A stretch of 64,000 nt of DNA, from sequence record PP761450.1; one strand, 5' to 3'. This stretch comes from Escherichia phage LHE287. The notes below the pieces were generated by a model, which was not told the origin of the DNA, did not search any database, and saw only the letters and a program-made list of their open reading frames with translations. Positions 35,822 to 61,314 of this stretch are shown piece by piece; the stretch's first letter is position 1, and the number at the start of each line of letters is the position of its first letter. Both the position numbers and the translations under genes were made by a program.

Positions 35822-35825
35822 CTTG

Positions 35826-36128: not shown

Positions 36129-36144
36129 AACAATACCTCAATGT

Positions 36145-36160: not shown

Positions 36161-36170
36161 ATGGAGTAAA

Positions 36171-41711: not shown

Positions 41712-42362
41712 TTATTCTCCAAAGTCGATCTTCATCTTGTCTGTTGCAAGCCCCTTCTCAAGATCATCTGCTAAAGCATTGTCGGTCTGCAGAGAAGAAT
41801 CCTTGTACACGTCCGGTTCGTTCTCTTCGTCCAAGATGGACAGACGTTTGTCGATATCGTCGATCTCCGGAACGCCCGTATCGAAGTTTTCGTTGCCGTA
41901 CTGGAACAACGTACACGGCAGAGAGAACGTATACCATTTGCCAAATTGCATGAAGTCTTCATCGTTGTTCGGGTTGTTGACCTTGAAGATCTTGTTCGCC
42001 AGTGGTAGATAGATCAGGTCACCTTCCTGAGGTTGTTGTTCAAACCCAACACCGTTGCCTATCACCTCGGCAAATCGGCGGCGCGAGATAGAGAACGTCA
42101 CTTCGTCTTGCAATTGGATACCCCCAAACTTCTCCCACATCTGGGTGTTGAAGCCCTGATAATCCTGCATGTATGCTTCGATGTCGAACGCCTGATCGAA
42201 TCTGTGGTTAGCATCGTTGGTGATAGGAAATTTTTCAACGATGGAACGGGGTATATACTTGATGTCTATCCCGCGCAACTCAATCATTTCCTGTACCAAA
42301 TCTTCAATCAGCTTCTGTGTGCCTTGGTGATTGGTGGCGTTGAAATATTTAGAAGTGGCCAT
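41712..42362 (-). CDS. neck protein-position (gp14-position)
   Basis: Synteny; CTAAATA late motif upstream (42386). Confidence 0.4.
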   Translation of the reverse strand: MATSKYFNATNHQGTQKLIEDLVQEMIELRGIDIKYIPRSIVEKFPITNDANHRFDQAFDIEAYMQDYQGFNTQMWEKFGGIQLQDEVTFSISRRRFAEVIGNGVGFEQQPQEGDLIYLPLANKIFKVNNPNNDEDFMQFGKWYTFSLPCTLFQYGNENFDTGVPEIDDIDKRLSILDEENEPDVYKDSSLQTDNALADDLEKGLATDKMKIDFGE

Positions 42363-42385
42363 ATCGATACCCTCAATTTTGAAGG

Positions 42386-42392
42386 TATTTAG
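42386..42392 (-). promoter_or_regulatory. late-promoter-like CTAAATA motif
   Basis: 24 nt upstream of the gp14-position gene. Confidence 0.45.
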
Positions 42393-42421
42393 TCGAAGTT
42401 TATTCTTTTGAGGAATAGCTC

Positions 42422-42634
42422 ATGCAAGTGGAAGACATCAAAGAAGTTCGCAGCGGTCGTCGCGTCCGAATCATCTGTGTGGACGCCAAGATTGGAGGTG
42501 GTGATTACGACATCGTCGGTCTGGTGAAAGAAGTAGATGGCACAGACTTCATTGAGTGGTGGAACTCCAAAGACAAGACAGAAGACGGTCTGCTGCGTGG
42601 TAGTGGCAACGGAAACCTGGATTTGAAAATCTAA
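42422..42634 (+). CDS. hypothetical small protein (plus strand, inside the neck gene block)
   Basis: 70-aa ORF with GAGGA RBS; followed by a GC hairpin. Confidence 0.4.
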   Translation: MQVEDIKEVRSGRRVRIICVDAKIGGGDYDIVGLVKEVDGTDFIEWWNSKDKTEDGLLRGSGNGNLDLKI

Positions 42635-42642
42635 AAGAAGGG

Positions 42643-42660
42643 CGGGTAATCCCGCCTTTC
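42643..42660. terminator. hairpin shared by converging genes
   Basis: gggcggg-taat-cccgcc, T-rich on both sides. Confidence 0.4.
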
Positions 42661-42661
42661 C

Positions 42662-43420
42662 TTATCCCATGTAGAAGTCGATAGGGTACTGCTGACCAGT
42701 ACGCAATTCTTCCTCTAAACGCTCTATCTCCGCTTCAGCCTCACTGAACATACTATCGCCATCCAGCTCGATACCGCCAGGGAGACGGATGCCTCTTGCC
42801 TTCTTGAGCACTTCTGCCCAGCGGCGCTTGACCAACGCAGTTGCATATGCCTTCAGCCACATATCATTCCATGCTTCTTCATTACCCTCAACCTCTGGGT
42901 CGATGTTCTGGAAGCATTTGAACGCCAACACCTCGTCCTTTGTCAGGGCGAATTGTGGGTAGAGTTTGCGCTGGAATTTCTTGTAAACGAAGGTGCGCTT
43001 CACGTTCAGCACACTGGTGATGTCAGACAAACGCTGTTGCATTGAAACATAGTCGACCAAGCGGATGGAAACAAGGGCGGCCTTTGGTACCAACATGGCT
43101 TGGGCCATCTGCCATTGAGGGGTTGCCCAGTTACCGATCGATTCAATCGGAGGGCCAACGATGACTTCAACCACGTCGTCGATGTCTTTGGGGAATTCGA
43201 TGTAACCGTTGGTGATAGTTTCTTCAGTCACCTGGTGAACAAAGAATGCGTCCTGACTGCCATCACGATGATACTCCCAAAACTTCTGTAGAGCATCGTC
43301 TACAGCATCCGAAACTTGCGTTGGGTCAAGGTTGATCTGAATTACAGGTGCCCCCAATTTCTTGAGAATGTAATTCATAAATCCTTTACGATCAACAATA
43401 GAATTAACGGCCATTGCCAT
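42662..43420 (-). CDS. neck protein-position (gp13-position)
   Basis: 252-aa ORF; synteny. Confidence 0.4.
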   Translation of the reverse strand: MAMAVNSIVDRKGFMNYILKKLGAPVIQINLDPTQVSDAVDDALQKFWEYHRDGSQDAFFVHQVTEETITNGYIEFPKDIDDVVEVIVGPPIESIGNWATPQWQMAQAMLVPKAALVSIRLVDYVSMQQRLSDITSVLNVKRTFVYKKFQRKLYPQFALTKDEVLAFKCFQNIDPEVEGNEEAWNDMWLKAYATALVKRRWAEVLKKARGIRLPGGIELDGDSMFSEAEAEIERLEEELRTGQQYPIDFYMG

Positions 43421-43742
43421 TCCCCTTGTTGCTCTGGATATCAGCGACGGTGATACGTAAAGTGCGAACGTCGTCGAATAGACTGTTGCTATTGAGTTTC
43501 AACTCAGCAACGTTCTGCTTGACGTAGTTAACGTCTGTGTTTAACACAGCAATCTTCTCATTCATATCGTTCACCTTGGTGAGGATTAGGTCGACCTTGT
43601 TGGAGTCACGCTCAACCACATCAAGGCGATTCTCAAATTTACCCATCATCCAAACAACCGAGCCAACAGAGACTATCGTCGCCGTCAGCACCCCGGTGAG
43701 GATCGCTTTCACATCGATCACAGTGTCAGTTTGGGTTGCCAT
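43404..43742 (-). CDS. membrane-anchored coiled-coil protein (i-spanin-like?)
   Basis: Start MATQTDTV with AGGAGG RBS; N-terminal TM helix ILTGVLTATIVSVGSVVWMM then coiled-coil-like segment. Confidence 0.35.
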   Translation of the reverse strand: MATQTDTVIDVKAILTGVLTATIVSVGSVVWMMGKFENRLDVVERDSNKVDLILTKVNDMNEKIAVLNTDVNYVKQNVAELKLNSNSLFDDVRTLRITVADIQSNKGNGNGR

Positions 43743-43974
43743 CTTGGCCTCCTGACGGGAGTTCAATCCCGAGGTGTTCCGCCATGAGTTGTACCATCGC
43801 TGTCAGTTGATCTATTTGCGCTGCCTGCGCTGCAATAGTTCTGTCCTTTTCTTCCTGATTTCGACGAGCGTTCAGTGCTGCCAAACCGGCAGCATTGTCT
43901 GTGCAGATGATAGCCCCAGGGCAAGAGCTACTTCTCATCATCGATGCATGCCCTTGTACTTTTACACCACGCAT
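43726..43974 (-). CDS. hypothetical protein
   Basis: 82-aa ORF. Confidence 0.35.
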   Translation of the reverse strand: MRGVKVQGHASMMRSSSCPGAIICTDNAAGLAALNARRNQEEKDRTIAAQAAQIDQLTAMVQLMAEHLGIELPSGGQDGNPN

Positions 43975-44023: not shown

Positions 44024-47000
44024 TTATGCCAGAGCAATCAAACGGAAATCTTTGAATGACGGCGGTGCTATGCGGTTGCCTCTGACCAGCAGGCGGATCT
44101 TCAGGCCAACGAAAGGATTGGTGCTGTCTACAGTCTTGTCATACTCATATTCGAAGAATGTAGAACCGTCATTGACCAGAGGGGATGTCGGTGTCACAGT
44201 TTCCCATGCCACATTATCCATTTCCTGGCCTGCGCGCAGCAGCTTAACCTGCACAGTCATTGAAGACTGAGAAGGTAGCATCGCGCCGAAGTATTGCTTC
44301 AGAGTGGTGCAAGGGTTATCGAATCCGATATCCTTGGTCACATAGCTGAACACATCTTCAAACGGATCCACGCCGTAGGTGTTGAAGATGATAGTGAAAT
44401 CATCACCGTCGATCATTGGAGCCGTGTAGACATTACTCTCGTTGCGAGTCATGGTTGCACGAACCTGGAAGTCGCCCACCTGACGATAGATACCTTCCGT
44501 CGGCAGAGACACGTCCGTATCGGATTCGAACTCAACCCAATCAGAGAATGAGTTGGAGGTCGCATCGCGATAGCGGTATTCCAGTTTCAACACAGATCCT
44601 TCTAGGGCTGAATTGGTGACGCTTGCGTAGAACATGTCTACCAAGTAGTTACCTAGGAAAGAAGCCGCTTCACCACCAATCTGACCGTCGGAGTCGGCGT
44701 TGGAACTCAGAACGAATTTGAACGTCGTGAACGTCGCATCGGTCACAGTGTGTTGAGCGTTCAGTTGCTCAGGAGTGAAACCGCAACCACCCGTCAACCC
44801 AGACAGAGTAACACTTTCACCCGCAGTCAGACCATGCCCCGGAGCGTACACAGTAACAGTTGAAGAACCATTGACACATTTCACGGTGTTCAGACCCAGA
44901 GGGCGGATCTTCGGACCGACTTTAGCATCGAAGGTCACGATGTTTGAACCAGCGGAGAAGTTACAGCGATACACACGGAACTTCATATCGGCAGTCTGGT
45001 TTGGAGTCCAGGTCGTACCATTTGAAGATGTGAAGAACACGCCAGTGTACGGCTGTTTGGCAATGAACTCGTTGGTCAGCAAGTTCTTCTTGCCCATCTC
45101 TGCGATGTATGCGTTGTAGTCCTGAGTGTTGGCCAGGAGTACGATCGCGAACTCAGTCTGCGCCTGCAGATACACAGGATAATCAAACTTGAACATCGTC
45201 GGCACAGAAGAGTCTGTGGAGACGGAAACTTCTGATGGATTCAGAGTCTTACGAGTGACGACTGTCGTCGCTGGCAGACCATTGCTCATCTCACGGATTT
45301 CCAGAGTGATTGGAATATCGCGAGACTTGGTAGAGAAGAACACTTCAATGCCTTCGATGTATTCGCCGCCGATATTGGTGGCAACCATGAAGGACTGGGC
45401 GATAGGGTCTTTCCACTTCGCGACTTCAACCGTCTCTGTTTTGTTTTCCGTAGACTTGGACGAAGTGTATCCCAGGACGCGGGTGTTGACATAAGTCTTC
45501 TGGATGCCCTGTTTCTTGCCGAAGGACTTATGAACAGCCTCGGCATTGGTCAGGGTATCATCAGCAGACTTGCTGTCCACAGGACTATCAGTCAGACGGA
45601 AGACGTTGTCACCCGTGTTAAACTTGATAGTCTCGTTCTGAGGAACCGCAAACACACCTTTGATGTTGCCGTTGGCATCAGTGTTCAACGCACCACCCAG
45701 TACACCACCGTTTGGGGTACAGTACGCGCTCACATCACGTCCAGAGAAGAACGGATACACACGAGTGAACGGACGCAGGCCTGTGGCTTCGAAGTTGATG
45801 TTCGTTTTGCGCATGTATGGGATTACCTGCGTTTCAACGATCTGCTCGCCAGTCAGGGTAGTGGTCGTCTTGTCGGTGTACGTGTACGTGGTGACGTCAC
45901 GGGTAGACACAGTCGTGCGGTAGCGATAGCCCCACCATACACCACCTGCACCATGCGGTTCCCACACACGCTCAGACACGGACACAGTACGCCATGTGCC
46001 ATACACAGAACCTTCTTTGATCGCACCACGGGTGTTGATCGTTTCGTTGATCACACGTGGAGTAACATAGTAGTTCTCAAACCAGTAATCAGTAGTTGGG
46101 TTCAGCTTCAAGAAACCTTCCCAGTTGAACACCGCATACGGGTTCACGTTGATGGTCGTGGTTGCATAGTCTTGGCGGACAGAGATCTCACGGGTGTAGT
46201 TGCATACAACCATGCCATCCTGAACGTTGTTCCAACCGACTGGCGTCAGGTCAATCGCGTTCTGCTGAACAAACGGGCGTAGGCGACCATTGTCAGTGTC
46301 GATTGAACCCACCCAGTCTGCAGACAAATCGTCGATCAGACGGAAGTCTTTGAACGGGTCTGCTGCGATACCGTTCTTGAAGCGCGGGTTGCCAGTAATT
46401 GGATCGAACACCTGTTGTGACATCGCCGAGGATTCCAGCTGAGACAGTGAGGTGTAATATTCGACATTGGAGATACGGGTCTCCAGTTTACCGATATCGC
46501 GCATCGTGTAGCGGCGGTTGTCGATAGTACGAATCTGGATGTCGTCAATGTTGGCCGTGTATGGTGGGATCATCAATTCATACAGGCGCATGCCGTTGTC
46601 TGGGATCGCAGGGGAAGCCAGGTTGTTGGAACTCACACCACGAGCAACGTTGAACACACCGTTGTCTGCCAGATACACAGCATCAATACGAGGCAGATAG
46701 TACTCTGCATCTAGGATGATCGCGGTGTTCGGGCGAACCATGTCCGTGTCAGACGCTCCGCTGGTGATCTTGGGACGGAAGTCCAGACTATCGGCCAACC
46801 CATACACAGTACCAGAACTGGATGAAACATAGTTCGGGATGTCTGGGTAGTTGATGGACGAATAGGAGTCCGCTGTAAAGAAATCACCAGAGCTGTGAGC
46901 GAAATACTGATACACCACCGTGAACGTCCCTGAAATGGCTCCAGTGGACGATATGAGATTAGAAAGGTAGTATGCAGCATCACGCTGGCCGCCGTCCAGA

Positions 47001-48862
47001 GTGAAGTTAGAGGTGACGTCAGCGCCATTTGCGTTCTTCACGCTGATCAGCTTGTAACCATCATGGTTCCCAAGTTGTGCGCTGGCCGCCGCAGTAAACG
47101 TCACAGTCTCGGTGACTTCGGTAACAGTCTTGGTCTTGATCGTCGCTGTGGTGCGGACCATCAATGCCAACAGGTTGATAGACTGGTTGGCGTACCCCGC
47201 GCCCAGGGAAATCTGTAGTGCTGAACCAACCGGAGTACCAGCCAGGGACAGTCCCGAAGAGATATCAAACTGAGCTGCAGTGCCATCTGCCTTCGCTGCG
47301 GAGTACAGTGAAAACTCAGGGCTGAAGCTGTAACCCAGAGGAGCAGAGATTGAGCCTGCACCAGCGGCGTTCAACGTGATCTTGTTTGACCGCAGGACAG
47401 TGTAGTTGATGTCGATGGTGCCTGTAGGTGCTAGAGTCTTCACACCAAATACAGGAAGAGGGAAGATCAGGTCAATCGCCGAACTCTGGCTGAACTGATT
47501 GGACTCCAGTTCGCAAGAGAACATGGTTGTGCCGCTTTCTTCGTATGCAACTTTGGTAACAGTACCCATGTCCCCAGTCACAACCAGGTCGCGCATATAC
47601 AGACGGAATTCAGTACCAGAGCGCTCTGCCGAAATCAGCAGGGCGGTGGCCTGCACATCGCTGGATGCGTTCAGGAACTTGTAGCGGATTGTGCGGGAGA
47701 CAACCGGAACCCCTTTGGAGTTCTTGGACACCAGATAGTTGCCAGTCGAAACAGCCACAGGGTTGTTGTTCAGGATATCAGTGTCACGGGCTTTGTCAAT
47801 TATGACCAGCTCTTCGCCGAGGTTTTCGATACGACGACCACGAACGTAGGATATCCCTGGCTTCATAACCGCCACGAATTTGCTTTCGTCGCCACCTTCG
47901 GCCGGAGTGTATACGCCACCGTTGTTGTTCTGTTTCAGATGTTCACGCAGGTCGATCTGGTGAGTAGAGACGTTGTAGTCACCATTGGTCTCATAGGTAC
48001 GCTGAGCCATGGCGTCTTCGAGGATGTTGTACGTTGACTGGGTGACCATGGACTGAATGCGACCGTCTTTCACCTTCGCCAGTTCAACGAAGTCGGCCAC
48101 TTCTTCATCATAACCGTAGCGAGACAACACGAGGTCGACGCGCAGGCGATGCGCACCAGGGGCTTTAGAGTTCGGAGTACCCTGAGCATTGGAGAACAGA
48201 CTTTCATCTTCTGCTTCAGTCACGATTGTTTCTGTAACTTTGAAGCCAATGCGGTGAGATGTAGAGTTCGATGCGTTGTCTACGATCAAAGTGGCTGGTT
48301 CAACATCCAGGAACATACCACGAACGAAATAAACACCCTTTGTCATGCGAGCGACAATCGAACCGCCAACAGTATCGGCCACACCATAGCCGACACGGAT
48401 GAAGTTATCGTTCACGTCATAAGTGTTGAAGTATAGATTGTCGCCAGCTTCGAAACCGTCTGAACTACCACTCTCAGTCATCTCTAAGATGGCATACATT
48501 GTATCCGGCTCAGCTGGATAACGTTCCAAAGACAGGACGCGTGCTTTCGCATTGTTGTCCTTGCCCAGAACATAGAGTTCGGAGATACCTTCCAGATCAG
48601 TGAACTCACTACCACCAGCCAGAGTGAACTTCATGGACACAGCAGTATTGGTGATCGTCAGGCCGCCGGGGATAACCATTGAACCGTCTTTGAACAGATG
48701 GTTGCCAAGTTTCTCCAGTTGATCCTGGAAGATGGTCTGCATCTGGTTCAGTTCACGCGTCTGAACTTTGATAGGTGCCGGACGGAATAGGATGCGCGAA
48801 AAACGCTTCTCTGGATTCCAGTCATCCCAATATGGGCGGCGGTTGAGGTTCATTTCTTGCAT
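44024..48862 (-). CDS. very large virion structural protein (1612 aa; baseplate/fibre-like)
   Basis: Start MQEMNL (48862) with GGAG RBS; CTAAATA late motif at 48897; sits in the structural module. Confidence 0.6.
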   Translation of the reverse strand: MQEMNLNRRPYWDDWNPEKRFSRILFRPAPIKVQTRELNQMQTIFQDQLEKLGNHLFKDGSMVIPGGLTITNTAVSMKFTLAGGSEFTDLEGISELYVLGKDNNAKARVLSLERYPAEPDTMYAILEMTESGSSDGFEAGDNLYFNTYDVNDNFIRVGYGVADTVGGSIVARMTKGVYFVRGMFLDVEPATLIVDNASNSTSHRIGFKVTETIVTEAEDESLFSNAQGTPNSKAPGAHRLRVDLVLSRYGYDEEVADFVELAKVKDGRIQSMVTQSTYNILEDAMAQRTYETNGDYNVSTHQIDLREHLKQNNNGGVYTPAEGGDESKFVAVMKPGISYVRGRRIENLGEELVIIDKARDTDILNNNPVAVSTGNYLVSKNSKGVPVVSRTIRYKFLNASSDVQATALLISAERSGTEFRLYMRDLVVTGDMGTVTKVAYEESGTTMFSCELESNQFSQSSAIDLIFPLPVFGVKTLAPTGTIDINYTVLRSNKITLNAAGAGSISAPLGYSFSPEFSLYSAAKADGTAAQFDISSGLSLAGTPVGSALQISLGAGYANQSINLLALMVRTTATIKTKTVTEVTETVTFTAAASAQLGNHDGYKLISVKNANGADVTSNFTLDGGQRDAAYYLSNLISSTGAISGTFTVVYQYFAHSSGDFFTADSYSSINYPDIPNYVSSSSGTVYGLADSLDFRPKITSGASDTDMVRPNTAIILDAEYYLPRIDAVYLADNGVFNVARGVSSNNLASPAIPDNGMRLYELMIPPYTANIDDIQIRTIDNRRYTMRDIGKLETRISNVEYYTSLSQLESSAMSQQVFDPITGNPRFKNGIAADPFKDFRLIDDLSADWVGSIDTDNGRLRPFVQQNAIDLTPVGWNNVQDGMVVCNYTREISVRQDYATTTINVNPYAVFNWEGFLKLNPTTDYWFENYYVTPRVINETINTRGAIKEGSVYGTWRTVSVSERVWEPHGAGGVWWGYRYRTTVSTRDVTTYTYTDKTTTTLTGEQIVETQVIPYMRKTNINFEATGLRPFTRVYPFFSGRDVSAYCTPNGGVLGGALNTDANGNIKGVFAVPQNETIKFNTGDNVFRLTDSPVDSKSADDTLTNAEAVHKSFGKKQGIQKTYVNTRVLGYTSSKSTENKTETVEVAKWKDPIAQSFMVATNIGGEYIEGIEVFFSTKSRDIPITLEIREMSNGLPATTVVTRKTLNPSEVSVSTDSSVPTMFKFDYPVYLQAQTEFAIVLLANTQDYNAYIAEMGKKNLLTNEFIAKQPYTGVFFTSSNGTTWTPNQTADMKFRVYRCNFSAGSNIVTFDAKVGPKIRPLGLNTVKCVNGSSTVTVYAPGHGLTAGESVTLSGLTGGCGFTPEQLNAQHTVTDATFTTFKFVLSSNADSDGQIGGEAASFLGNYLVDMFYASVTNSALEGSVLKLEYRYRDATSNSFSDWVEFESDTDVSLPTEGIYRQVGDFQVRATMTRNESNVYTAPMIDGDDFTIIFNTYGVDPFEDVFSYVTKDIGFDNPCTTLKQYFGAMLPSQSSMTVQVKLLRAGQEMDNVAWETVTPTSPLVNDGSTFFEYEYDKTVDSTNPFVGLKIRLLVRGNRIAPPSFKDFRLIALA

Positions 48863-48896
48863 TTTGATGCTCCATCGATAGGTGCCATTATAGAGA

Positions 48897-48903
48897 TATT
48901 TAG
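48897..48903 (-). promoter_or_regulatory. late-promoter-like CTAAATA motif
   Basis: 35 nt upstream of the 1612-aa gene. Confidence 0.45.
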
Positions 48904-48933: not shown

Positions 48934-48949
48934 AAGCCCGAAGGGGCTT
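48934..48949 (-). terminator. UUCG-loop terminator
   Basis: aagccc-gaag-gggctt followed on the minus strand by TATTTCTTTC. Confidence 0.5.
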
Positions 48950-49480: not shown

Positions 49481-49483
49481 AAC

Positions 49484-49503
49484 AACCCCGCCGATGCGGG
49501 GTT
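49484..49503 (-). terminator. hairpin terminator after tail spike gene
   Basis: aaccccgcc-gat-gcggggtt followed on the minus strand by TTGTTTTA. Confidence 0.5.
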
Positions 49504-49508
49504 GCAAA

Positions 49509-51482
49509 TCAAACAACCTGAATTATTCCTTGCACATTAGTGATGTTTGTGCCAGCAATGGCAATAGTCATCCTGTTGTTCTCATCATATGTGATAGTCA
49601 TGGGTTTAGCGCCAGATGGTTGCATTAGACCAAAGCTACCAAATAACGTACCACATGCATTTATTGGAGTTCCATTATCAGTAACCAGCAGGTTAATGTG
49701 AACTATATTATATGGGCTACGTACCACCTGAGTGGTAATGGTGGCTCTTGCCGGGTCGCTGGTGTTGACAGTACAGAACGGAACGCTATTACTTGGCAGT
49801 ACTGTGCTAATAGTTTGCCCCGTATATCTCTTAGGGGCTGTACTGCTTTGGCGTAAATTTCGCGCAATAACAGCCCCTGATGAATCCGTGAGTGTTTCAA
49901 TGCGCTTAATCTCCACTCCTTGTCCAACGAGATAGTTACCAGGTATCGAACTGCCATTCTGAATGGTGCTTACGTAATCCTCAATCTCAATGATGAATGT
50001 CTTCTCACCACTACGACCAGTGACTGCAAAATCACCACGCCAGTTAGTTCCTGATGGATGTGCTCCATCCTTAAAGTTGCATGATTTATCAATCCCACCT
50101 GATAAAACAGTTGACGCTTCCAGATGAATCATTTGCCAATGTAAATATGAATTTCTGATATAAAGCCTTTCAACTATTGCTGAAGGATCAACTCGTATCC
50201 CTATTGTGTTTTTCTCAAAGTACCAGTTATGTAATTCAAGGTTTTGAATATTTCCTGAATCAGAACCATAAATATCCACACCACGGACACCATTTTCAGC
50301 TGTGCAAGAATCAAAACAATCTGCTGAGCTAAGACCGGTTATCTTCCAGTTAGTATGGAAACCAGACGCTACGCATTTACGAACGCCCATTGCCTGGATA
50401 TTTGATTCAATCTGGAATGCTATAGACCCATCAGCGCCTGCCGGAGGACTCATTGCGGAGATTTCCTCAATGGTTCCATAGAAGCTGTCTTTAACTATAA
50501 CTGGGTAACGCGTCGCAGTGATGCGAGTGTCCTTGATTGCACTCCCATAAATCATCTGGTACATCTTGTAAGCAGAACCGGCAAATCTGATGCGCCCACC
50601 ACCAATACGCATATCAGGAACAAGGCCAATTGAGCCAACTGAACTAGCAGGAACTGACCAGTTTGATTTAAGTTCCCCTGCATCCCAATAAGCTGACTCA
50701 AAAATAGTGTTTGTGCCAACTACGCCTTGGCTACCATTCCCTTCTATGACTGCGTGGTTTAAATCTATTGAAACTCCACCTGGAACCAGAATTGTCCCCA
50801 TTATTTTAACTACAGATTTTCTAGGCAGCTTTAACTTGATCATCGAGCCGTTTGCTTCTGTTATTGCACTTTGTATTGCGGCAGTGTCATCAGCAACACC
50901 ATTGCATTTAGCACCCCATCCTCTGATGTCACCTTCATCTCGCCATCTTGCAATCTGTAGTGCTGGGTATAGAGATGCACCATTAGGATTTGATATTTGA
51001 TTTCTTAATACAATATCTCCAACACTAACCCACTTACCTAAACCAACGCCACCAGTACTCTCTGGGGTTGAGCCAGCAGAAACGATTTTAGGTAATTCAC
51101 CATCCCAGCGATACTTACCATCAGCAAAGACAACCAGTTCATTCTTAACATTAACGGTTACTCCGGTAGAGAATGACCCAGGTAAAGTCACATACTCTTC
51201 ACGAGTGACAGCTAATTCACCCAAGTCCACATTACCAGCAGAGTGAACTAATACCCCAGCAGGGCTGAGACTTACAGCAGTAACCCCTGAGTCAATACTG
51301 GTTGGTAATGAGTAAGCACGCTGGGTAGTCTTATCATAAATAACTTTGTAACCACCCAAGTCCACACCCACAGCAAAGTAGACTACTTCATTTTGCTTGA
51401 CACCAAACTTACGGGCAATGGCTTGTTTGTTGGTAAGAATACCAGTGGAGCCTTTACCACCTTGTGAGAATAACTCGTTCAT
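49509..51482 (-). CDS. tail spike protein (right-handed beta-helix type)
   Basis: 657 aa; N-terminal module shared with the 1183-aa spike; Asn/Gly-rich repetitive C-terminal domain. Confidence 0.65.
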   Translation of the reverse strand: MNELFSQGGKGSTGILTNKQAIARKFGVKQNEVVYFAVGVDLGGYKVIYDKTTQRAYSLPTSIDSGVTAVSLSPAGVLVHSAGNVDLGELAVTREEYVTLPGSFSTGVTVNVKNELVVFADGKYRWDGELPKIVSAGSTPESTGGVGLGKWVSVGDIVLRNQISNPNGASLYPALQIARWRDEGDIRGWGAKCNGVADDTAAIQSAITEANGSMIKLKLPRKSVVKIMGTILVPGGVSIDLNHAVIEGNGSQGVVGTNTIFESAYWDAGELKSNWSVPASSVGSIGLVPDMRIGGGRIRFAGSAYKMYQMIYGSAIKDTRITATRYPVIVKDSFYGTIEEISAMSPPAGADGSIAFQIESNIQAMGVRKCVASGFHTNWKITGLSSADCFDSCTAENGVRGVDIYGSDSGNIQNLELHNWYFEKNTIGIRVDPSAIVERLYIRNSYLHWQMIHLEASTVLSGGIDKSCNFKDGAHPSGTNWRGDFAVTGRSGEKTFIIEIEDYVSTIQNGSSIPGNYLVGQGVEIKRIETLTDSSGAVIARNLRQSSTAPKRYTGQTISTVLPSNSVPFCTVNTSDPARATITTQVVRSPYNIVHINLLVTDNGTPINACGTLFGSFGLMQPSGAKPMTITYDENNRMTIAIAGTNITNVQGIIQVV

Positions 51483-51506
51483 ATAAACCTCATTGTTTTT
51501 CTAGAA

Positions 51507-51525
51507 AACCCCTCCGAAGAGGGGT
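51507..51525 (-). terminator. UUCG-loop terminator
   Basis: aacccctc-cgaag-aggggt followed on the minus strand by TTTCTAG. Confidence 0.55.
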
Positions 51526-51533
51526 GGATTAAT

Positions 51534-53771
51534 TTAACGCTTAAGTGCTACTACCTGAGAATCAGTAGTAATTTCGAAATAGAATGTACCCGCAGCAGAG
51601 CCAATTGGGGTAGCAATGAGTTCGTTGGAAGAACCAATTGACCAGGTAAAGCTAGGTGTTCCTGCTACATTACCTGACACGTAACCAAGCTGCTTAATTA
51701 ACTCACACTCTTTGCCCGTATCTGCACCGGAACAAACTAGTAGTTTATAAATAGCAACACGACGAGTAGCTGTAGAGGGTGGGTTAACACTGGCGACTAT
51801 AGTTACTTCACCGGCAAACGACTCAGTGCTTGAGTCAGAATTATTACCGTGACCCTGGGTACTTCTCAGGTTACATACTGCTACCGGTCCTGATACGCCA
51901 GACTTCTGTGTATAAAGTGTATGGTGTACCCAATCAATATAACCACCATTACGAGATTGCCAACCATTCGGTAGAACACAGTTATCTACAATAACTACAG
52001 TTTCATTACCATCAGCAATAATATCTGGGGTTGTGCCAATACTGGCGTGGGCTGTACTATCCGCTATTCGAACACGGTTGATAGTATTCTGTGCACTAAT
52101 TGCATGAAGCAGGTTTGCATGAGTACCTGAACCGTTGTTGTGACAGAAGGCTCCATGAATAGCAATACTTCTGTTTTCCCCCAAGCTGGAGGATGCTTCA
52201 ACCATAATGCCAGCACCTTTATTACTCTCAGCACCGGGAGCAACCATAACAAAACCTTCTGACTTGGCAATAGCATACCCATGCCCAGCATTCTGATCAG
52301 ATGCTGGAGTAATGGCAGCAGAGTAGTTCATAAATCCGAATCGCCAGCCATTGCCACCGTTCTTCAACTGATACCCTGCAAGGGTTGTAGTGCTGGTTTT
52401 CTGTGCTGTTATTGAGAAGTGGACACCATTACCAGTACATTGGTCAGCAAGAACTTGGTTATAGACGTTAACCCAGCTATTACCTATATACACACCATCC
52501 GATGTAGCAGTGGATACTCTAAGGTTATCAATTGATGTACGGGAAGCAGTTTCAACACGTAACCCGTTGTATCCACCTTTGGTTCCTAAGTCCTTTAGCT
52601 TGAAGCCTTGAACATATTTACCGCTTGGTAGATTAGTATTTAAGATTGCACTTCCTGCTGGGAAACCAGAAGCAGCAACAAGAAGAGTGCTACCCTTACC
52701 TGAACCGGAGATTAAGTATTCATCCCCTGTATCATCTTCACCTGCTGGAACACGGTCAAACACTATTGGGGTATCTAGAGACATTTGTCTACGTGGAAGA
52801 TTGAGACGCCCCCCTATTTTATAGGTTGTGTTCTGCGAACGGAGGAAATCTAATCCAGCGTTAATCTGAATACCCACATCTGAACCAGAAAAGTCATCCA
52901 TAGACAAGGTACGGTCAGTGAGGTCTTCCAGCATTCCCCCAACAGTTCCTTTATTGTATGTTTCTGCTGGGTCATACCCAATCTCACCTGCACCATTAGA
53001 TGCAGACAGATTCTCATAAGAATCCGGAGTAGGAACCAGGTCTACTGTAATATTTCCCGGAGAGTAGGTTAACTGACCACCTGAGACAGACTTAATATAT
53101 ACGTTAGTAGGTAGGTTAGGTAAACCGTAAGCCTTCTGCTCACTAACAGAGAATACTACCTTCTTACCATTAAGAAACTGAGAAGTATCCGTGCTGAGAA
53201 TTACTTCAGAGTCTTTTACGTTAGCAGCACGAGCGATTTCTTGAATACTTCGGTCAAACAACAGACCGATATTCGATTGTTTAACAGACATTTCAGCGAC
53301 TACCCAAACGCCTGCAGTCAGCGCAGTTTGTAAAGACACTTTCCCTGTCGTTCTGTCATAGGAATATTCAATTTCGGGTGTTTTGTACTCACCACCGATA
53401 TAAAGAGATTGGACTCCATAAGATGTGTAATCAGGAGTGAACTCGGTTTCACCTCCTATAGCCTGAAACTTATAGATTCGAATCCCGGTTTTATAATCTT
53501 CTGGAGACAAAATCTTATCAAACAGGCAGAACACAACGTCACCTTTGGATAATGCACGCCCGAGATTCAACGTATTTCCATCGATTTCAAAGTTGTCTAA
53601 CGGAACTTGCATGCCACCGTTGATTGTGACTATACCAGTGACAGGGTAGAAAGGGAGGGAGATAAACTTCTCTCCGCCCGTTGCTGTGTAAGTGTATGGA
53701 ATCTGGTGTGGAGCTGTTACGACCGCTCCAAAGATGCTCTCGACGTTTCTGGTCATTTGAAGATACCCCAT
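51534..53771 (-). CDS. tail spike protein (beta-helix type)
   Basis: 745 aa; late motif CTAAATACCCC upstream; start could alternatively be 53756. Confidence 0.65.
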   Translation of the reverse strand: MGYLQMTRNVESIFGAVVTAPHQIPYTYTATGGEKFISLPFYPVTGIVTINGGMQVPLDNFEIDGNTLNLGRALSKGDVVFCLFDKILSPEDYKTGIRIYKFQAIGGETEFTPDYTSYGVQSLYIGGEYKTPEIEYSYDRTTGKVSLQTALTAGVWVVAEMSVKQSNIGLLFDRSIQEIARAANVKDSEVILSTDTSQFLNGKKVVFSVSEQKAYGLPNLPTNVYIKSVSGGQLTYSPGNITVDLVPTPDSYENLSASNGAGEIGYDPAETYNKGTVGGMLEDLTDRTLSMDDFSGSDVGIQINAGLDFLRSQNTTYKIGGRLNLPRRQMSLDTPIVFDRVPAGEDDTGDEYLISGSGKGSTLLVAASGFPAGSAILNTNLPSGKYVQGFKLKDLGTKGGYNGLRVETASRTSIDNLRVSTATSDGVYIGNSWVNVYNQVLADQCTGNGVHFSITAQKTSTTTLAGYQLKNGGNGWRFGFMNYSAAITPASDQNAGHGYAIAKSEGFVMVAPGAESNKGAGIMVEASSSLGENRSIAIHGAFCHNNGSGTHANLLHAISAQNTINRVRIADSTAHASIGTTPDIIADGNETVVIVDNCVLPNGWQSRNGGYIDWVHHTLYTQKSGVSGPVAVCNLRSTQGHGNNSDSSTESFAGEVTIVASVNPPSTATRRVAIYKLLVCSGADTGKECELIKQLGYVSGNVAGTPSFTWSIGSSNELIATPIGSAAGTFYFEITTDSQVVALKR

Positions 53772-53791
53772 AAAGGATGTCCAATATGGGG

Positions 53792-53798
53792 TATTTAG
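53792..53798 (-). promoter_or_regulatory. late-promoter-like CTAAATA motif
   Basis: CTAAATACCCCATA with inverted copy TATGGGGTAT before the start. Confidence 0.45.
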
Positions 53799-53835
53799 GC
53801 TGAACTAATAAATTTATGAACAAAGGTATAATAAG

Positions 53836-53855
53836 AACCCCGCCAAAGCGGGGTT
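53836..53855 (-). terminator. hairpin terminator
   Basis: aaccccgcc-aaa-gcggggtt. Confidence 0.5.
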
Positions 53856-53859
53856 GGTT

Positions 53860-56800
53860 TTATGTATAAGATGTCTCTGATATGGATATCGCCACTGTTT
53901 TAGACCGCGATGGTGTGCTTCTGTTTACAAAATACACGGTGTGTGTTACCCCCATATCCGCATTTAGTTGGTAGTACTCAGCCCCATAAGGTACTCTGTA
54001 ACTCAGAGGGTGCACAGCAGAAGCTGTTAATGCGCCTGAGTAATTGGGTGCGGACGGTTTTGCGTTCAGGAAGTTATACCATATGGACACTCCGGATACA
54101 GAACCGGTATTGGGCGCTACGCAACTCTTGTCTATGATGCCAGTGTAGATGTTGGCAACCGCGCCGCATTGAACAAGAACAGAACCAACGCCTTTAAGGA
54201 TGGCTCCTTTAAGGTACGCTGGATAGTTACTTGACATGCACGCAATCGTGCAAGACACAAAAGTATCATTTATTGACTCTAAGCCACGGGTGTTATTGTT
54301 TATAGACGTAGACTTGACGAGATAGGCGCAGTCCACATCGTTGAACACATTTGACTCAATATCTAATCTAAAGTTTGTAGATATAGTCACACATGCAACC
54401 ATAACCCCTAAATGAATGTTTCTGAATTTACAATTTTTAATGCTTACACTACGTGTACCCTGTACGTAACCAAAAACTCCAGCAACACCCCCGTTTATTA
54501 GCGCGGTTACTGTACTAGGGAGGTACAGGTCCGCTGTTTTTGTGAAATCTACTAAAGAAGTATAATCAATAGCGGCCCTGCTCTCGTTATAGTAGAACTC
54601 ACAGTCATCAAGATAAATTCTTTGCGTCGGGGCGGACACGAAACCAGCCCAACCGAACGGTTTGGAACCTGTATCATATAAATTAACACAACCAGACGAA
54701 GGAGTGCCAGCACCCCCTACGTAGTAAAACTTATTCCTGCGTAGGTCTACTGTGTAGCTTACCGTATTCTCTATCCCGGCAGATAATCTAATAGTGTTGT
54801 CAGTAAATTGGTTAAAAATAACCCCCAGATTCGTCAAACTGTAACACTCTATGTTGTTATTGGAGATAATATTACCTTTGTTAAAAGCGTAGTCCCCAAT
54901 ACCATGTCGGGCATTTACTTTGTTACCGGTAGCCACGTTGTAATCACAATGAGTGTGGAAGATAAGCCCCCAGTGATATCCTGAAGTAGCTTCTCCATTG
55001 ATTACATTACCAGTAAATACGTTACGGCAGCAGTTCTTAAAGACGATTAGCACTGCATCTTTAATTACCTCTGGAGTAACAAAGCTGTTATTAGAGAAGG
55101 AGTTATGATAACAGTTCCAGGACAACATGAAGGTGTACCCAATATCCAGCGTGTTATTCTCAACCTTGTTAAAGTTAGAGAAGTAACTAATCTCTGGATA
55201 ATTTAAACGACCAGTGCAGTTAGAAATACCACCTCCATAGTTCCTACGGAATCGTAAAACGCCGTCGGTATCTGCCGTACCAGTATTTTCATCTATAAAA
55301 TGGATATTTCTAAAGTGTGCGTGGTTTACCTCGGAGTACACAATAGCGGTAGCTCCAGGAGCAGAAAAGTTGGGCGTTATATCGAGATACGCACGACTAT
55401 TTATGCTGTCATATTTAATCACCTTGAACAGGCAGGAGCGAAGCGTTCCAAAATTGGCGTCATCCTTTGATAGCGACATTATATCTATGGTGTTTGCCGT
55501 AGCAGTTTCTGCGGCCATAACATAGTCAGTTTTACCGTTGGTGATTTCCAGGTATTTCCCTGTCAGGTCCACAGAAGAACTAACCCACGGTTGGTTGTAA
55601 ACTAAATTTACACTCTGTGTGGTGGAAGTGGATGGGCTTGTAAAGAATATTTTTGCACCATCAGCTATTCTAAGAGATGCTTTTATCCTTGCTTTGAATT
55701 CTCCAATACCAAGAGGTAGGGTTATGCTAGTGGCAATGTATGTCGTAGTATAGTCCGGCAGGATGACATATTTAAGGTCGTTAGCCATAGCCTCGATAGC
55801 TGCGGAATCGTCAGTGATGCCGTCGCAAACCGCTCCGTAATCAAGTATGGTTTTCAATTGCTCTAACTGCTCAGCAATAGTCCTGCTAACTGTTCCATCC
55901 CCTTTATTTTTGTTTCCTATGATACTAGCTCCAGAGTTCGAAGCCAGATCGCTTCTTAAGGAAGTATCCCCAACACTAATCCACGCGCCCGAACCTTCCC
56001 CACCAGTTGTCGAAGGGGTTGAACCAGCAGAAACTTCTTTAGGTAATGCACCATCCCAACGGTACTTGCCATCAGTAAAGACAACCAGTTCATTCTTGGT
56101 ATTAACTGTTACACCGGTATCAAATGACCCGGACAATGTGACGTACTCTTCACGAGATACAGCCAATTCCCCGAGATCTACAGAACCCGCTGAATGTACA
56201 AGTACAGCGGAAGAACTAAGACTGACAGCAGTAGTACCAGGGACAATATCAGCAGGCAAGGGATAAGCCCTTTGCGTCTCCTTGTCATAAATAACTTTAT
56301 ACCCACTTAACGCAGCACCAACACTAAAATAAACGACCTCTGTATCTTTAACATTGGTCACACGAGCAACTTCCCGCAAAGTATAATCAATTTGATTATA
56401 GATGTTTGGTGTTCCATTGATAATTACAACAACTTCATCCTCCGGTTCCAGTTCTTGCGCAAGAGTGATTTTACTGGTTAATGGATCGAATGTGAATCCC
56501 AGATTTTTATACTGGCGACTTCCGTTTATATCAATGGCCGGAACATCATCAACAACGACGTCCAACGTGATTTCGGTTTCACCACCAATCGCTGAACCCC
56601 CATTATAGACCCAAGTAATCGTAGAAGAACTAGAACCACCGCCATTACCCAATTGAATAGGAGTATATTCAATCACCTGAAGTTCTGTGTTAGCTGGCAA
56701 AGAAGGACTGAAAGTGATTACATTCCCATCTAGTGAATATTTAGATTCCGCAAGACGTTTCCCATCAGCATACACGTCCACGATTGTTGGTGGAGTATTG

Positions 56801-57411: not shown

Positions 57412-57448
57412 TTCAAATACCCCTAAATGTGTTCGTTTCATCTAGGGG

Positions 57449-58648: not shown

Positions 58649-58650
58649 TT

Positions 58651-59505
58651 TTAACTCCTTGAACTTTCTAGGAATACAGTAAACCCAGCAGGATGGAAAT
58701 GCTGACGGAAGACGCGGTCAAACACACCTTCAAATTCAGATACGTTGCCAGGAACTCTTATCACATACGTGAATTCATCATAGTAGTAATCGTCACGCAT
58801 TCCTGTCGCGCCGTCACATTCAAAGTTGTCATCCAGGCCACCAATTGCTTCCTTGGGATAATACACACTCACTGGGCAACCAAAGTAAATCCAGAAGAAC
58901 AATTCAATCGCTTTCTTCGTCCCGCGAATGCGATAAATGTGTTTAAGTAACTTCAACCAGCGTACATGGTCCAGTGTCCGGCGTTCAGTTCCCTCGACAT
59001 ACACAGAGAGTGTGTCTCCGTCTGAAGTCACCAAACTGTCCGAACCAACTGGCACAAACTTCCCGAACTCCAGGAAGGACTTATCAACCGTTCTCTGGAA
59101 TCCAAAATCAGCATACCAATCGTCGATGCGTTCGTTCTTGTCTTCCATTGAGATTAATGGTCGACCGTCCACGTCCAGCAAATCTTCGAAGTCTAGCGCC
59201 ATCATGTTCTCAAACGTGCGCGTCAGGAACTTGTCTTCCAAGAAGTCTTTGGCCTCAGTACCTGGCGTCTTGCGCTTCTTGATGTCAATCAACTGCTCAA
59301 TAGGAGACTGATCCGTATTTGGGTTCACCCAGCCACCAGTGTCTGCCAGATACGCCAAGATCTCCTCTTCGGTGAATCCCTGCTGTCGATACAACCAGTT
59401 GAAGAACGTATCCATAAACTCGATGAATACTGGGAATTCATTCTGGTAAAACAATGGGGTTTCATATTTCACCCCATTGTGTCCGTTATTAAGATCTTTG
59501 GACAT
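58651..59505 (-). CDS. baseplate-associated protein (position of gp7/gp53 in T4)
   Basis: 284-aa ORF overlapping the gp6-like gene end. Confidence 0.35.
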   Translation of the reverse strand: MSKDLNNGHNGVKYETPLFYQNEFPVFIEFMDTFFNWLYRQQGFTEEEILAYLADTGGWVNPNTDQSPIEQLIDIKKRKTPGTEAKDFLEDKFLTRTFENMMALDFEDLLDVDGRPLISMEDKNERIDDWYADFGFQRTVDKSFLEFGKFVPVGSDSLVTSDGDTLSVYVEGTERRTLDHVRWLKLLKHIYRIRGTKKAIELFFWIYFGCPVSVYYPKEAIGGLDDNFECDGATGMRDDYYYDEFTYVIRVPGNVSEFEGVFDRVFRQHFHPAGFTVFLESSRS

Positions 59506-61267: not shown

Positions 61268-61307
61268 GATAATCTCCATCACCTGAGTTTGAATATGGTG
61301 TTGAAGA

Positions 61308-61314
61308 TATTTAG
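61308..61314 (-). promoter_or_regulatory. late-promoter-like CTAAATA motif
   Basis: 41 nt upstream of the gp6-like gene. Confidence 0.45.

What the first reader, a model, noticed from the sequence alone, without database searches (positions are those of the whole stretch)
44024..48862. 1612-aa late protein in the wac/gp12/gp10 position
This single giant structural gene with its own late motif occupies the interval where T4 has several baseplate and fibre genes. It may be a fusion of multiple baseplate or fibre functions, or a giant fibre with enzymatic domains.
Basis: inference. Interest (0 to 1): 0.4.

Follow-up and report, generated by a model that had tools for sequence, protein, structure and literature searches.

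The report
Known phage baseplate "tripod" protein (VriC)
The 1612-residue gene is real, but it is the already catalogued "VriC" structural gene of Vi1-like (Ackermannviridae) phages, a full-length relative of the baseplate "tripod" protein whose structure was solved in Staphylococcus phage 812, and not a fusion of T4 baseplate or fibre genes or an enzyme-carrying fibre.

Summary
**Observation: confirmed.** Window 44024-48862, minus strand, is one intact 1612-codon gene (177.3 kDa). It has a GGAG ribosome site and a CTAAATA late-promoter-like motif 34 nt upstream. It is under strong purifying selection.

**Source and identity.** The window is not T4-like in the strict sense. It is an Ackermannviridae (Aglimvirinae, Agtrevirus-like) phage, 98.4% identical here to Escherichia phage RPN242. 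The gene is the known vriC ("virulence-associated protein", Pfam DUF4815), the conserved marker beside the tailspike cluster.

**Virion evidence.** Orthologues are abundant virion proteins by mass spectrometry: Ag3 orf206 and Sajous1 gp140.

**Closest solved relative.** It aligns end to end with the 1152-aa tripod protein (gp119/TmpG) of Staphylococcus phage 812 (profile E 7e-71). AlphaFold models of both halves match only that structure significantly. The extra ~460 residues are mainly four inserted beta-rich segments.

**Not found.**
- No similarity to T4 gp9, gp10, gp11, gp12 or wac.
- No enzymatic fold.
- No hypervariable receptor-binding end.

[quoted passage not shown] That function is inferred, not shown.

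**Verdict.** Already known; low interest.

The parts
44024..48862 (-). vriC coding sequence: 1612 aa plus stop, 177.3 kDa, pI 4.9. DUF4815 family; homologue of the phage 812 tripod protein.
48870..48873 (-). GGAG ribosome-binding site, 7 nt before ATG 48862.
   Evidence: read directly from the sequence
48897..48903 (-). CTAAATA late-promoter-like motif, 34 nt upstream of the ATG.
   Evidence: 13 copies, all on the minus strand, against 4.5 expected
48934..48949 (-). Terminator-like hairpin (AAGCCCCTTCGGGCTT plus T-run) just upstream of the late motif.
   Evidence: consensus scan only
49482..49505 (-). Terminator-like hairpin directly after the stop of the upstream tailspike gene. It separates that gene from vriC.
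48695..48769 (-). aa 32-56: first of three long helices. They correspond to the three 'spine' helices of the 812 tripod (inference).
   Evidence: AlphaFold secondary structure; 812 description
47984..48028 (-). aa 279-293: second 'spine' helix.
46418..46504 (-). aa 787-815: third 'spine' helix, in one of the two best-conserved stretches of the protein.
48350..48607 (-). aa 86-171: beta-rich insertion absent from the 812 tripod.
   Evidence: hhalign gap map; pLDDT ~85
47525..47755 (-). aa 370-446: beta-rich insertion absent from the 812 tripod.
47087..47359 (-). aa 502-592: beta-rich insertion absent from the 812 tripod.
44939..45415 (-). aa 1150-1308: beta-sandwich module (DPIAQSF...). It contains the other best-conserved stretch (aa 1241-1280) and is the part most widely shared with other phage families.
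   Evidence: phrog_5986; Morganella phage hit 1149-1309
44618..44845 (-). aa 1340-1415: inserted small domain, Phage_spike_2-like. It also resembles a non-catalytic N-terminal stretch of the phi92 endosialidase chain.
44027..44494 (-). aa 1457-1612: C-terminal beta-sandwich, aligned to 812 tripod residues 1011-1147. This is the region unresolved after contraction in 812 ('anchor/hook'); the mapping is inferred.
   Evidence: for 812
49509..57441 (-). Context: three tailspike genes (657, 745 and 1193 aa). The 1193-aa protein is the TSP4 orthologue carrying the baseplate anchor.
57458..61318 (-). Context: three baseplate genes. They encode a 396-aa protein, a 284-aa PF23786 wedge subunit and a gp6-like wedge subunit.
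41712..43974 (-). Context downstream: two small virion-protein ORFs (82 and 120 aa), a protein at the gp13 position (PHROG head-tail adaptor; annotated neck protein in RPN242) and a gp14-like neck protein.

Best explanation
**Identity (shown).** This is vriC, the conserved DUF4815 structural gene of Ackermannviridae phages. It is a late-transcribed, single 177-kDa polypeptide that orthologue proteomics finds in the virion in many copies. It is a full-length homologue of the baseplate tripod protein of Herelleviridae phages (Staphylococcus phage 812 gp119 = TmpG = phage K ORF65). It is enlarged mainly by four inserted beta-rich segments (~330 of the ~460 extra residues).

**Mechanism (inferred by homology).**
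1. Three chains assemble around a three-helix 'spine' into a tripod.
2. The tripod is fixed to the baseplate periphery through its N-terminal part, which resembles the RBP/TssK 'shoulder'.
3. Its C-terminal chain of lectin/CBM-like beta-sandwiches contacts conserved cell-envelope glycans once the tailspikes have cut through O-antigen or capsule.
4. As in 812, it rearranges during attachment and holds the baseplate on the cell while the sheath contracts.

On this reading it stands in for the gp12 short fibres that this family lacks. It may correspond to the 'prongs' seen under the baseplate by electron microscopy.
For: **Identity.**
- Pfam DUF4815 scores 206 bits against a cut-off of 30.
- The gene is 98.4% identical in DNA and 99.7% in protein to RPN242 gp159. 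Orthologues are annotated VriC / virulence-associated protein.
- The gene order is the one described for the vriC-tsp locus.

**Virion protein.**
- Ag3 orf206 (92% nt identity) was one of the six most intense bands of CsCl-purified virions: 36 peptides, 177.2 kDa.
- Sajous1 VriC gave 311 spectra, among the top five proteins.

**Late expression.** The strand-specific CTAAATA motif follows terminator-like hairpins.

**Homology to the tripod protein.**
- phmmer E 9e-54 and profile E 1.6e-120 to the PDB 9euf chain.
- That chain is the tripod protein, shown by Kayvirus gene order and sizes: 1019, 173, 1152, 52, 640, 124 and 458 aa correspond to gp117-123.
- hhalign aligns residues 2-1608 to 1-1147 of 1152, E 7e-71.

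**Glycan-binding character.** CBM22 tandem hits have probability 0.93-0.99. The 812 base, fin and leg domains are described as CBM/lectin-like.

**Not the host-range determinant.** Identity is even along the whole length. It stays near 83% in phages of Salmonella, Klebsiella, Serratia and E. coli, whereas the neighbouring tailspike body has no close match at all.

**Conserved module.** In Vibrio phage VP-1 the gene directly follows the three baseplate genes with no tailspikes between. This parallels the 812 order: wedge, arm scaffold, arm segment, tripod.
Against: - No structure or genetics exists for VriC in any Ackermannviridae phage. The 2024 review calls the link to the prongs speculation.
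- The 812 docking partners were not detected in this 64-kb window: arm scaffold gp117, arm segment gp118, RBP1/2 and the coupler (tblastn). The only hint is a weak, non-significant match of the PF23786 wedge protein to TmpF residues 64-175 (E 0.026). The mode of attachment must therefore differ, or it is encoded elsewhere.
- The host is Gram-negative, so the proposed peptidoglycan-binding 'hook' role in 812 cannot simply be transferred.
- The trimeric state, copy number and conformational switch were not tested here.
- The models are monomers with low confidence in aa ~816-1005 and 1126-1152.
Confidence: 0.72

Rival explanations
1. VriC is mainly a passive scaffold of the baseplate periphery. 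It would be the platform onto which the branched tailspike complex docks through the TSP4 anchor domain, with no receptor contact of its own.
For: The gene always flanks the tsp cluster. TSP4 carries a baseplate anchor domain whose partner is unidentified. VriC is evenly conserved, like a structural part. Its abundance fits a large structural element.
Against: - Vibrio phage VP-1 keeps a full-length VriC directly after the baseplate genes with no tailspike genes in between.
- Herelleviridae and cyanophage homologues exist without TSP4-type spikes.
- The C-terminal half is a string of CBM/lectin-like sandwiches, which is more than a docking platform needs.
Confidence: 0.17
2. VriC is a tail fibre or primary receptor-binding protein that sets host range, as some GenBank records annotate it ('tail fiber protein').
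For: - Annotations in a few records (H6, H45, H56).
- The Sajous1 paper describes it as 'previously associated with host range'.
Against: - There is no hypervariable distal domain.
- Identity is about 83% irrespective of whether the host is Salmonella, Klebsiella, Serratia or E. coli.
- In this family, host range is attributed to the tailspikes and predicted from their subtypes. The neighbouring tailspike is highly mosaic while vriC is not.
Confidence: 0.07
3. One reading: the gene is a fusion of several T4-type baseplate or fibre genes (gp9, gp10, gp11, gp12, wac), or a giant fibre carrying enzymatic domains.
For: The position between the wedge genes and gp13, where T4 has those genes. The large multi-domain size.
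Against: - No sequence hit to any T4 baseplate or fibre chain in the PDB, even with a family profile at E<=1.
- Only DUF4815 in Pfam.
- End-to-end collinearity with a single 1152-aa protein of another phage family.
- No significant enzyme fold.
- The one endosialidase hit covers a 64-residue non-catalytic stretch.
Confidence: 0.03
4. The long ORF is an assembly or frameshift artefact, or the product is a bacterial-type virulence factor, as its database name suggests.
For: Only the name 'virulence-associated protein'. From my own knowledge, the name was transferred from VrlC of the Dichelobacter nodosus vrl region.
Against: - Identical length in many independently sequenced genomes.
- A 71:5 ratio of synonymous to non-synonymous codon differences.
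- The full-length predicted mass confirmed by MS in virions.
- The gene sits inside the late structural module.
Confidence: 0.01

Closest known systems
VriC / 'virulence-associated protein' of Ackermannviridae (Shigella phage Ag3 orf206, Escherichia phage RPN242 gp159, AV101, Kuttervirus Sajous1 gp140)
   Same: - The same gene: 92-98% nt identity to Agtrevirus-group orthologues and about 83% aa identity to Kuttervirus/Taipeivirus ones.
- The same length.
- The same place, between the tsp cluster and the gp13 neck gene.
- The same Pfam family.
   Different: Only a handful of substitutions: 5 aa against RPN242. This window has three rather than four tailspike genes next to it.
Tripod protein gp119 of Staphylococcus phage 812 (= TmpG, phage K ORF65; PDB 9EUF, 9EUI and others). 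It has a relative in Listeria phage A511.
   Same: - End-to-end homology (E 7e-71; 27% identity over 1097 aligned positions).
- The same fold in both halves.
- Three spine helices followed by CBM/lectin-like sandwiches.
- Encoded after the wedge genes of the baseplate module.
   Different: - About 460 residues longer, mainly through insertions at aa 86-171, 370-446, 502-592 and 1340-1415.
- The host is Gram-negative.
[quoted passage not shown]
- No experimental structure or copy number is available.
'VrlC' / structural proteins of T4-like cyanophages (S-SM2, S-RSM4, S-RIM2 and others) and of Rhizobium, Variovorax and Vibrio myoviruses (DUF4815 family, PHROG 358/877)
   Same: They share the DUF4815 N-terminal part and the conserved aa ~1150-1308 sandwich, at 27-38% identity. 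Vibrio, Ralstonia and Delftia phage homologues keep the whole ~1600-aa architecture.
   Different: Cyanophage proteins cover only 53-67% of the query, in several pieces, and have other insertions.
T4 gp12 short tail fibre (functional analogue only)
   Same: On the proposed reading, both are trimeric baseplate-periphery proteins that fix the baseplate irreversibly to the cell surface. Both are encoded between the wedge genes and gene 13. This rests on established T4 gene order plus inference.
   Different: No sequence or fold similarity was detected. The review states that the family lacks gp9-gp12.
Siphophage receptor-binding proteins (lactococcal phages 1358 and p2) and the T6SS baseplate protein TssK
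   Different: Only about 150 residues align, at 6-13% identity. This is fold-level resemblance, not family membership.

Membership tests
Ackermannviridae VriC (DUF4815, PF16075) | Pfam DUF4815 match above the gathering score. | tested here: met
   206.4 bits against a cut-off of 30, E 8e-61.
Ackermannviridae VriC (DUF4815, PF16075) | Full-length orthology (~1600 aa) to annotated VriC genes. | tested here: met
   100% coverage at 98.4% nt and 99.7% aa identity to RPN242, 92% nt to Ag3 orf206, and about 83% aa to Kuttervirus VriC.
Ackermannviridae VriC (DUF4815, PF16075) | Locus position: flanks the tailspike (tsp) cluster, opposite the baseplate wedge genes. | tested here: met
   The order on the minus strand is gp6-like, PF23786 wedge, 396 aa, TSP4, TSP, TSP1-like, vriC, gp13, gp14. 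It matches the published description.
Ackermannviridae VriC (DUF4815, PF16075) | Component of the virion. | not testable with these tools
   Shown for orthologues by mass spectrometry (Ag3 orf206, Sajous1 gp140), not for this isolate.
Herelleviridae baseplate tripod protein (phage 812 gp119) | Sequence homology over the whole protein. | tested here: met
   hhalign 2-1608 against 1-1147 of 1152, E 7e-71. Profile against PDB, E 1.6e-120.
Herelleviridae baseplate tripod protein (phage 812 gp119) | Same fold, including three spine helices and CBM/lectin-like sandwiches. | tested here: met
Herelleviridae baseplate tripod protein (phage 812 gp119) | Homotrimer that docks on loops of an arm scaffold protein (gp117), with arm segment protein gp118. 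| tested here: not met
   No homologue of TmpF or BmpC was found in the 64-kb window (tblastn, best E 0.9-1.7). hhalign of the PF23786 wedge family against TmpF gave E 0.026, which is inconclusive. Baseplate genes elsewhere in the genome could not be examined. The trimer state was not tested.
Herelleviridae baseplate tripod protein (phage 812 gp119) | Large conformational change on tail contraction; LysM-like hook binding the cell wall. | not testable with these tools
   This needs cryo-EM of both states. The C-terminal region aligns to 812 residues 1011-1147, but no LysM match was found in Pfam for either protein.
T4 peripheral baseplate / fibre proteins (gp9, gp10, gp11, gp12, wac) | Detectable sequence or fold similarity to any of these proteins. 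| tested here: not met
Tailspike depolymerases / enzyme-bearing fibres | Beta-helix or other catalytic domain. | tested here: not met
   There is no significant enzyme fold. Endosialidase Foldseek hits have probability 0.2-0.44. The sequence hit to 4hiz covers residues 192-255 only. By contrast, one neighbouring tailspike (the 657-aa protein) shows a weak, sub-threshold pectate-lyase-like match.

The most novel reading that the evidence does not exclude
VriC trimers are the unexplained 'prongs' under the Ackermannviridae baseplate. On this reading they work as a Gram-negative version of the 812 tripod. They would dock without arm scaffold proteins, through a different partner such as the PF23786 wedge subunit or the 300-400-aa protein encoded next to it. 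After the tailspikes have cleared the O-antigen or capsule, they would flip to bind a conserved envelope ligand and license sheath contraction. This would make DUF4815 tripods an ancient baseplate-anchoring device, alternative to gp12, shared by Ackermannviridae, Herelleviridae and T4-like cyanophages.
Probability: 0.4. Interest if true: 0.4.

Novelty: already known. Interest (0 to 1): 0.15.

Why it matters
For genome annotation, the point is corrective. The gene should not be read as a T4 gene fusion, a virulence factor or a tail fibre. It is the Ackermannviridae counterpart of the structurally solved Herelleviridae tripod protein.

Ackermannviridae phages are being developed for biocontrol and detection by swapping tailspikes. 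The conserved, abundant VriC is the main uncharacterised piece of their adsorption apparatus. Knowing that it is a tripod homologue gives a concrete structural hypothesis for the 'prongs' and for the step between O-antigen cleavage and tail contraction.

Nothing in this window adds a new kind of system.

Tried and rejected
1. **T4 gene fusion.** I searched Pfam, PDB sequences (single sequence and 49-sequence profile) and folds. No gp9, gp10, gp11, gp12 or wac signal appeared. Rejected.
2. **Enzymatic domain.** Only low-probability endosialidase or glycosidase Foldseek hits appeared, plus a 64-residue non-catalytic match. Rejected.
3. **Frameshift or assembly artefact.** Rejected on conservation, substitution pattern and orthologue mass spectrometry.
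4. **812 baseplate partners in the window.** tblastn with the arm scaffold TmpF, arm segment BmpC, RBP1, coupler, RBP2 and wedge proteins found nothing significant.
5. **Small local profiles run with hhalign.**
   - The PF23786 wedge family gave a weak match to TmpF 64-175 (E 0.026). It is in the syntenic gene but not significant.
   - The 396-, 292- and 312-aa 'third' baseplate proteins of the window, PhiW-14 and VP-1 are not even detectably similar to each other by BLASTP. Left as inconclusive.
6. **PDB searches with the 396-aa and 284-aa baseplate proteins.** No hits.
7. **NCBIfam.** No family matched.
8. **Literature.**
   - The A511 baseplate paper (PMC6356063) is not held.
   - No held paper combines 'Ackermannviridae' with 'tripod'.
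9. **Heavy searches not used.** I left two homologous-protein searches and the representative-library search unspent, because the verdict did not depend on them.
Full report
**1. The observation**

On the minus strand an ORF runs from 48910 (TTG) or 48862 (ATG) to the stop at 44024-44026. Three things support it as the start:
- GGAG lies at 48873-48870, 7 nt upstream.
- It coincides with the annotated start of the 98.4%-identical gene of Escherichia phage RPN242.
- The N-terminus is conserved from the first residues in distant homologues.

A chance ORF of this length has a probability of about 2e-34, and the other two frames contain 69 and 80 stops. Against RPN242 there are 76 nucleotide differences, of which 71 codon changes are synonymous and 5 non-synonymous. 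About 100 full-length (~1600 aa) homologues at 31-83% identity were retrieved. The gene is therefore real, intact and under purifying selection.

**2. The 'late motif'**

CTAAATA lies at 48903-48897, 34 nt before the ATG. The heptamer occurs 13 times in the window against 4.5 expected, with 0 of 100 shuffles reaching 13. All copies are on the minus strand, and most sit 7-37 nt upstream of gene starts, including sheath, tube, gp14-like, TSP4 and the gp6-like gene. Two terminator-like hairpins lie between the upstream tailspike gene and this motif, at 49505-49482 and 48949-48934. An independent late transcription unit is therefore plausible.

The Ag3 paper reports gp55, gp33 and gp45 homologues in this phage group. 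From my own recollection, a CTAAATAcCcc-type late consensus has been described for Vi1-like phages. I did not verify this in a held paper.

**3. What the window is**

The window is not T4 or a close T4 relative. The best matches are Ackermannviridae, subfamily Aglimvirinae: RPN242, YX22, A221, AV101, then SKML-39 and Ag3.

The gene order on the minus strand is:
- gp6-like wedge (609 aa)
- PF23786 wedge subunit (284 aa)
- a 396-aa protein
- TSP4 orthologue (1193 aa; E 3e-196 to CBA120 TSP4-N)
- a 745-aa tailspike
- a 657-aa TSP1-like tailspike
- the 1612-aa gene
- two small virion-protein ORFs
- a protein at the gp13 position and a gp14-like neck protein
- gp15, terminase, sheath, tube and portal

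T4 has genes 9, 10, 11, 12 and wac between the wedge genes and gene 13 (established T4 map). But the interval here also holds the tailspike cluster. According to the review, the gp10-like adaptor domains reside in TSP2 and TSP4, and gp9-gp12 are absent.

**4. What the gene is**

- Pfam gives DUF4815 (206 bits; cut-off 30) and a sub-threshold Phage_spike_2 at aa 1351-1421.
- PHROGs gives families 358 and 877, of unknown function.
- GenBank orthologues are labelled 'hypothetical', 'virulence-associated protein', 'VriC/VrlC' or occasionally 'tail fiber'.
- The literature treats vriC as the conserved marker flanking the tsp cluster and uses it to locate that cluster in 99 genomes.

Orthologues are abundant virion proteins. 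Ag3 orf206 was one of the six strongest bands of CsCl-purified particles, with 36 peptides, 39.6% coverage and a predicted mass of 177.2 kDa. The window protein is 177.3 kDa. Sajous1 gp140 gave 311 spectra, among the top five proteins.

**5. Closest solved relative**

phmmer against all PDB sequences finds one protein, a 1152-aa 'DUF4815 / ORF65' chain of the phage 812 baseplate entries (E 9e-54). With a 49-sequence family profile the E-value is 1.6e-120.

I identified this chain as the tripod protein gp119 from gene order and sizes in a Kayvirus genome:

| Gene in Fi200W | Length (aa) | 812 product |
|---|---|---|
| TmpF | 1019 | arm scaffold gp117 |
| BmpC | 173 | arm segment gp118 |
| TmpG (similar to K ORF65) | 1152 | gp119 |
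| small ORF | 52 | (gp120) |
| K ORF66 | 640 | RBP1 gp121 |
| K ORF67 | 124 | coupler gp122 (the paper gives 124 residues) |
| K ORF68 | 458 | RBP2 gp123 |

BLASTP gives four collinear blocks. hhalign of the VriC family profile against TmpG gives a single alignment, 2-1608 against 1-1147 of 1152, with 1097 aligned positions, 27% identity and E 7e-71. The additional residues are mainly insertions at aa 86-171, 370-446, 502-592 and 1340-1415. These insertions are retained, with few gaps, throughout the ~1600-aa subfamily, including Vibrio, Ralstonia and Delftia phages.

**6. Structure predictions**

Two AlphaFold2 jobs with 49-sequence alignments were run:

| Segment | Mean pLDDT | Confident regions |
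|---|---|---|
| aa 1-1000 | 78 | >85 over most of aa 60-780 |
| aa 900-1612 | 80 | high for aa 1009-1119 and 1159-1612 |

The N-half has three long helices (aa 32-56, 279-293, 787-815) amid beta domains. This matches the three 'spine helices' described for the 812 tripod. The C-half is all-beta.

Fold searches gave these results:
- Foldseek against the PDB gives only phage 812 baseplate entries (9EUI, 9EUJ, 9EUF) as significant hits. The 9euf_0 chain is the tripod protein. For the N-half, E is 5e-23 (9eui_Q), 3e-14 and 5e-9. For the C-half, E is 1e-22 with TM 0.51 over 740 columns.
- Next for the C-half come CBM22 tandem modules (probability 0.93-0.99, E ~2e-3). This agrees with the CBM16/61- and lectin-like description of the 812 base, fin and leg domains.
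- No enzyme fold reaches significance.

Low-confidence stretches (aa ~816-1005 and 1126-1152) are probably trimer-dependent elements (inference).

**7. Conservation pattern and synteny**

Identity along the protein is even. In 40-residue blocks it is 0.55-0.94 among close relatives and 0.15-0.58 among distant ones. The best-conserved blocks are around aa 801-840 and 1241-1280, and there is no hypervariable distal domain.

VriC stays near 83% identical in phages of Salmonella, Klebsiella, Serratia and E. coli. In contrast, the adjacent TSP1-like gene shares only its first ~470 nt with anything in the phage collection. Divergence therefore tracks phage lineage, not host. This argues against a primary host-range role.

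In Vibrio phage VP-1 the order is gp6-like, PF23786 wedge, a 312-aa protein, VriC, gp13, with no tailspike genes between them. In Delftia phage PhiW-14 a set of small genes intervenes. The conserved core 'wedge, wedge, X, DUF4815' parallels the Kayvirus order 'wedge gp116, arm scaffold gp117, arm segment gp118, tripod gp119'.

**8. Mechanism**

*Shown:* the gene's identity, its homology to the tripod protein, the fold match and the late-gene context. For orthologues, virion incorporation and abundance are also shown.

*Inferred from the 812 structure:*
- trimerisation around the spine helices
- attachment to the baseplate periphery by the N-terminal part
- glycan contact by the C-terminal sandwiches
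- rearrangement on attachment that anchors the baseplate

In 812 there are 12 trimers. The strong gel band in Ag3 is compatible with tens of copies (inference).

The 2024 review already speculates that VriC forms the prong-like structures, and notes in-silico resemblance to A511 and phi812 baseplate proteins.

*What does not transfer:* the 812 docking partners (arm scaffold and arm segment) and RBP1/2 are not detectable in this window. The proposed peptidoglycan-binding hook has no obvious target on a Gram-negative surface.

**9. Comparison and novelty**

The gene is a member of the known Ackermannviridae VriC group, with all testable defining features met. It is a homologue of the Herelleviridae tripod protein: sequence and fold criteria are met, while the arm-scaffold docking context is not met in this window. 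It is not a member of the T4 gp9-12/wac families or of the tailspike depolymerases.

Because near-identical sequences are deposited and the gene, its conservation, its virion presence and its resemblance to A511/812 baseplate proteins are already in the literature, I rate it 'already known'.

What this analysis adds is modest:
- explicit end-to-end equivalence to the now-solved 812 tripod chain
- a map of the four main insertions
- the absence of enzymatic and T4-like parts
- the even conservation pattern

**10. Verdict**

- Observation: confirmed.
It is a structural, late, baseplate/fibre-module gene, but not a fusion and not enzymatic.
- Interest: 0.15.
- Most novel reading not excluded: VriC tripods are the prongs and act as a gp12-like anchor docked without arm proteins. 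I give this a probability of about 0.4; it would be of moderate interest to phage structural biologists.

Noticed in passing
window 49142-49480 (+), inside the 646-bp gap between the TSP1-like gene and vriC: This 112-aa plus-strand ORF is a truncated remnant. Its aa 26-106 are 88% identical to the C-terminal 81 aa of gp17 (208 aa) of Shigella podophage pSb-1 (Gamaleyavirus, Schitoviridae). The DNA at 49188-49508 is 87% identical to pSb-1. It looks like a scar of recombination with an N4-like phage.
   Followed up: partly
window 49509-51482 (-), 657-aa TSP1-like tailspike: Only the first ~470 nt match other phages: 84% to Gamaleyavirus tail-fibre genes and 75-80% to Ackermannviridae tailspike-region genes. 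The receptor-binding body has no megablast match in the 50,697-record phage collection. It appears to be a novel specificity module on a shared N-terminal adaptor.
   Followed up: partly
window 49509-57441 compared with L001 8668-19549: The window carries three tailspike-like genes (657, 745 and 1193 aa). Its closest relative for vriC, RPN242, has four genes in the same interval (742, 802, 849 and 1053 aa). The tsp cluster is thus remodelled while vriC is 98% identical.
   Followed up: no
window 34921-36170 (between tube and sheath genes): RPN242 has a GIY-YIG homing endonuclease between the sheath and tube genes. The window instead has two small minus-strand ORFs of 100 and 125 aa.
   Followed up: no
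whole window, minus strand: All 13 CTAAATA heptamers lie on the minus strand. Several are followed by a short palindrome (for example CTAAATACCCCTAGATGAAACGAACACATTTAGGGGTATTT before TSP4 and CTAAATACCCCCATCATCCATGGGGGTATTT at 25374), as if the late motif were embedded in a hairpin.
   Followed up: no
literature on the orthologue Ag3 orf206 (92% nt identity to window 44024-48862): The 177.2-kDa protein migrated at 126 kDa on SDS-PAGE. The authors suggested a compact residual structure. Proteolytic trimming of ~50 kDa was not excluded and remains unresolved.
   Followed up: no
L004 (Vibrio phage VP-1) 5671-16203 and 18187-21529: VP-1 has vriC directly after the three baseplate genes, with no tailspike genes in between. 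Its large terminase appears split, with a GIY-YIG domain hit in the first part.
   Followed up: no
AlphaFold models of aa 1-1000 and aa 900-1612: The N-half model matches the post-contraction 812 tripod better (E 5e-23, against 5e-9 for pre-contraction). The C-half matches the pre-contraction form better (E 1e-22, TM 0.51, against 1.7e-13, TM 0.21). This may only reflect which residues are resolved in each entry.
   Followed up: no
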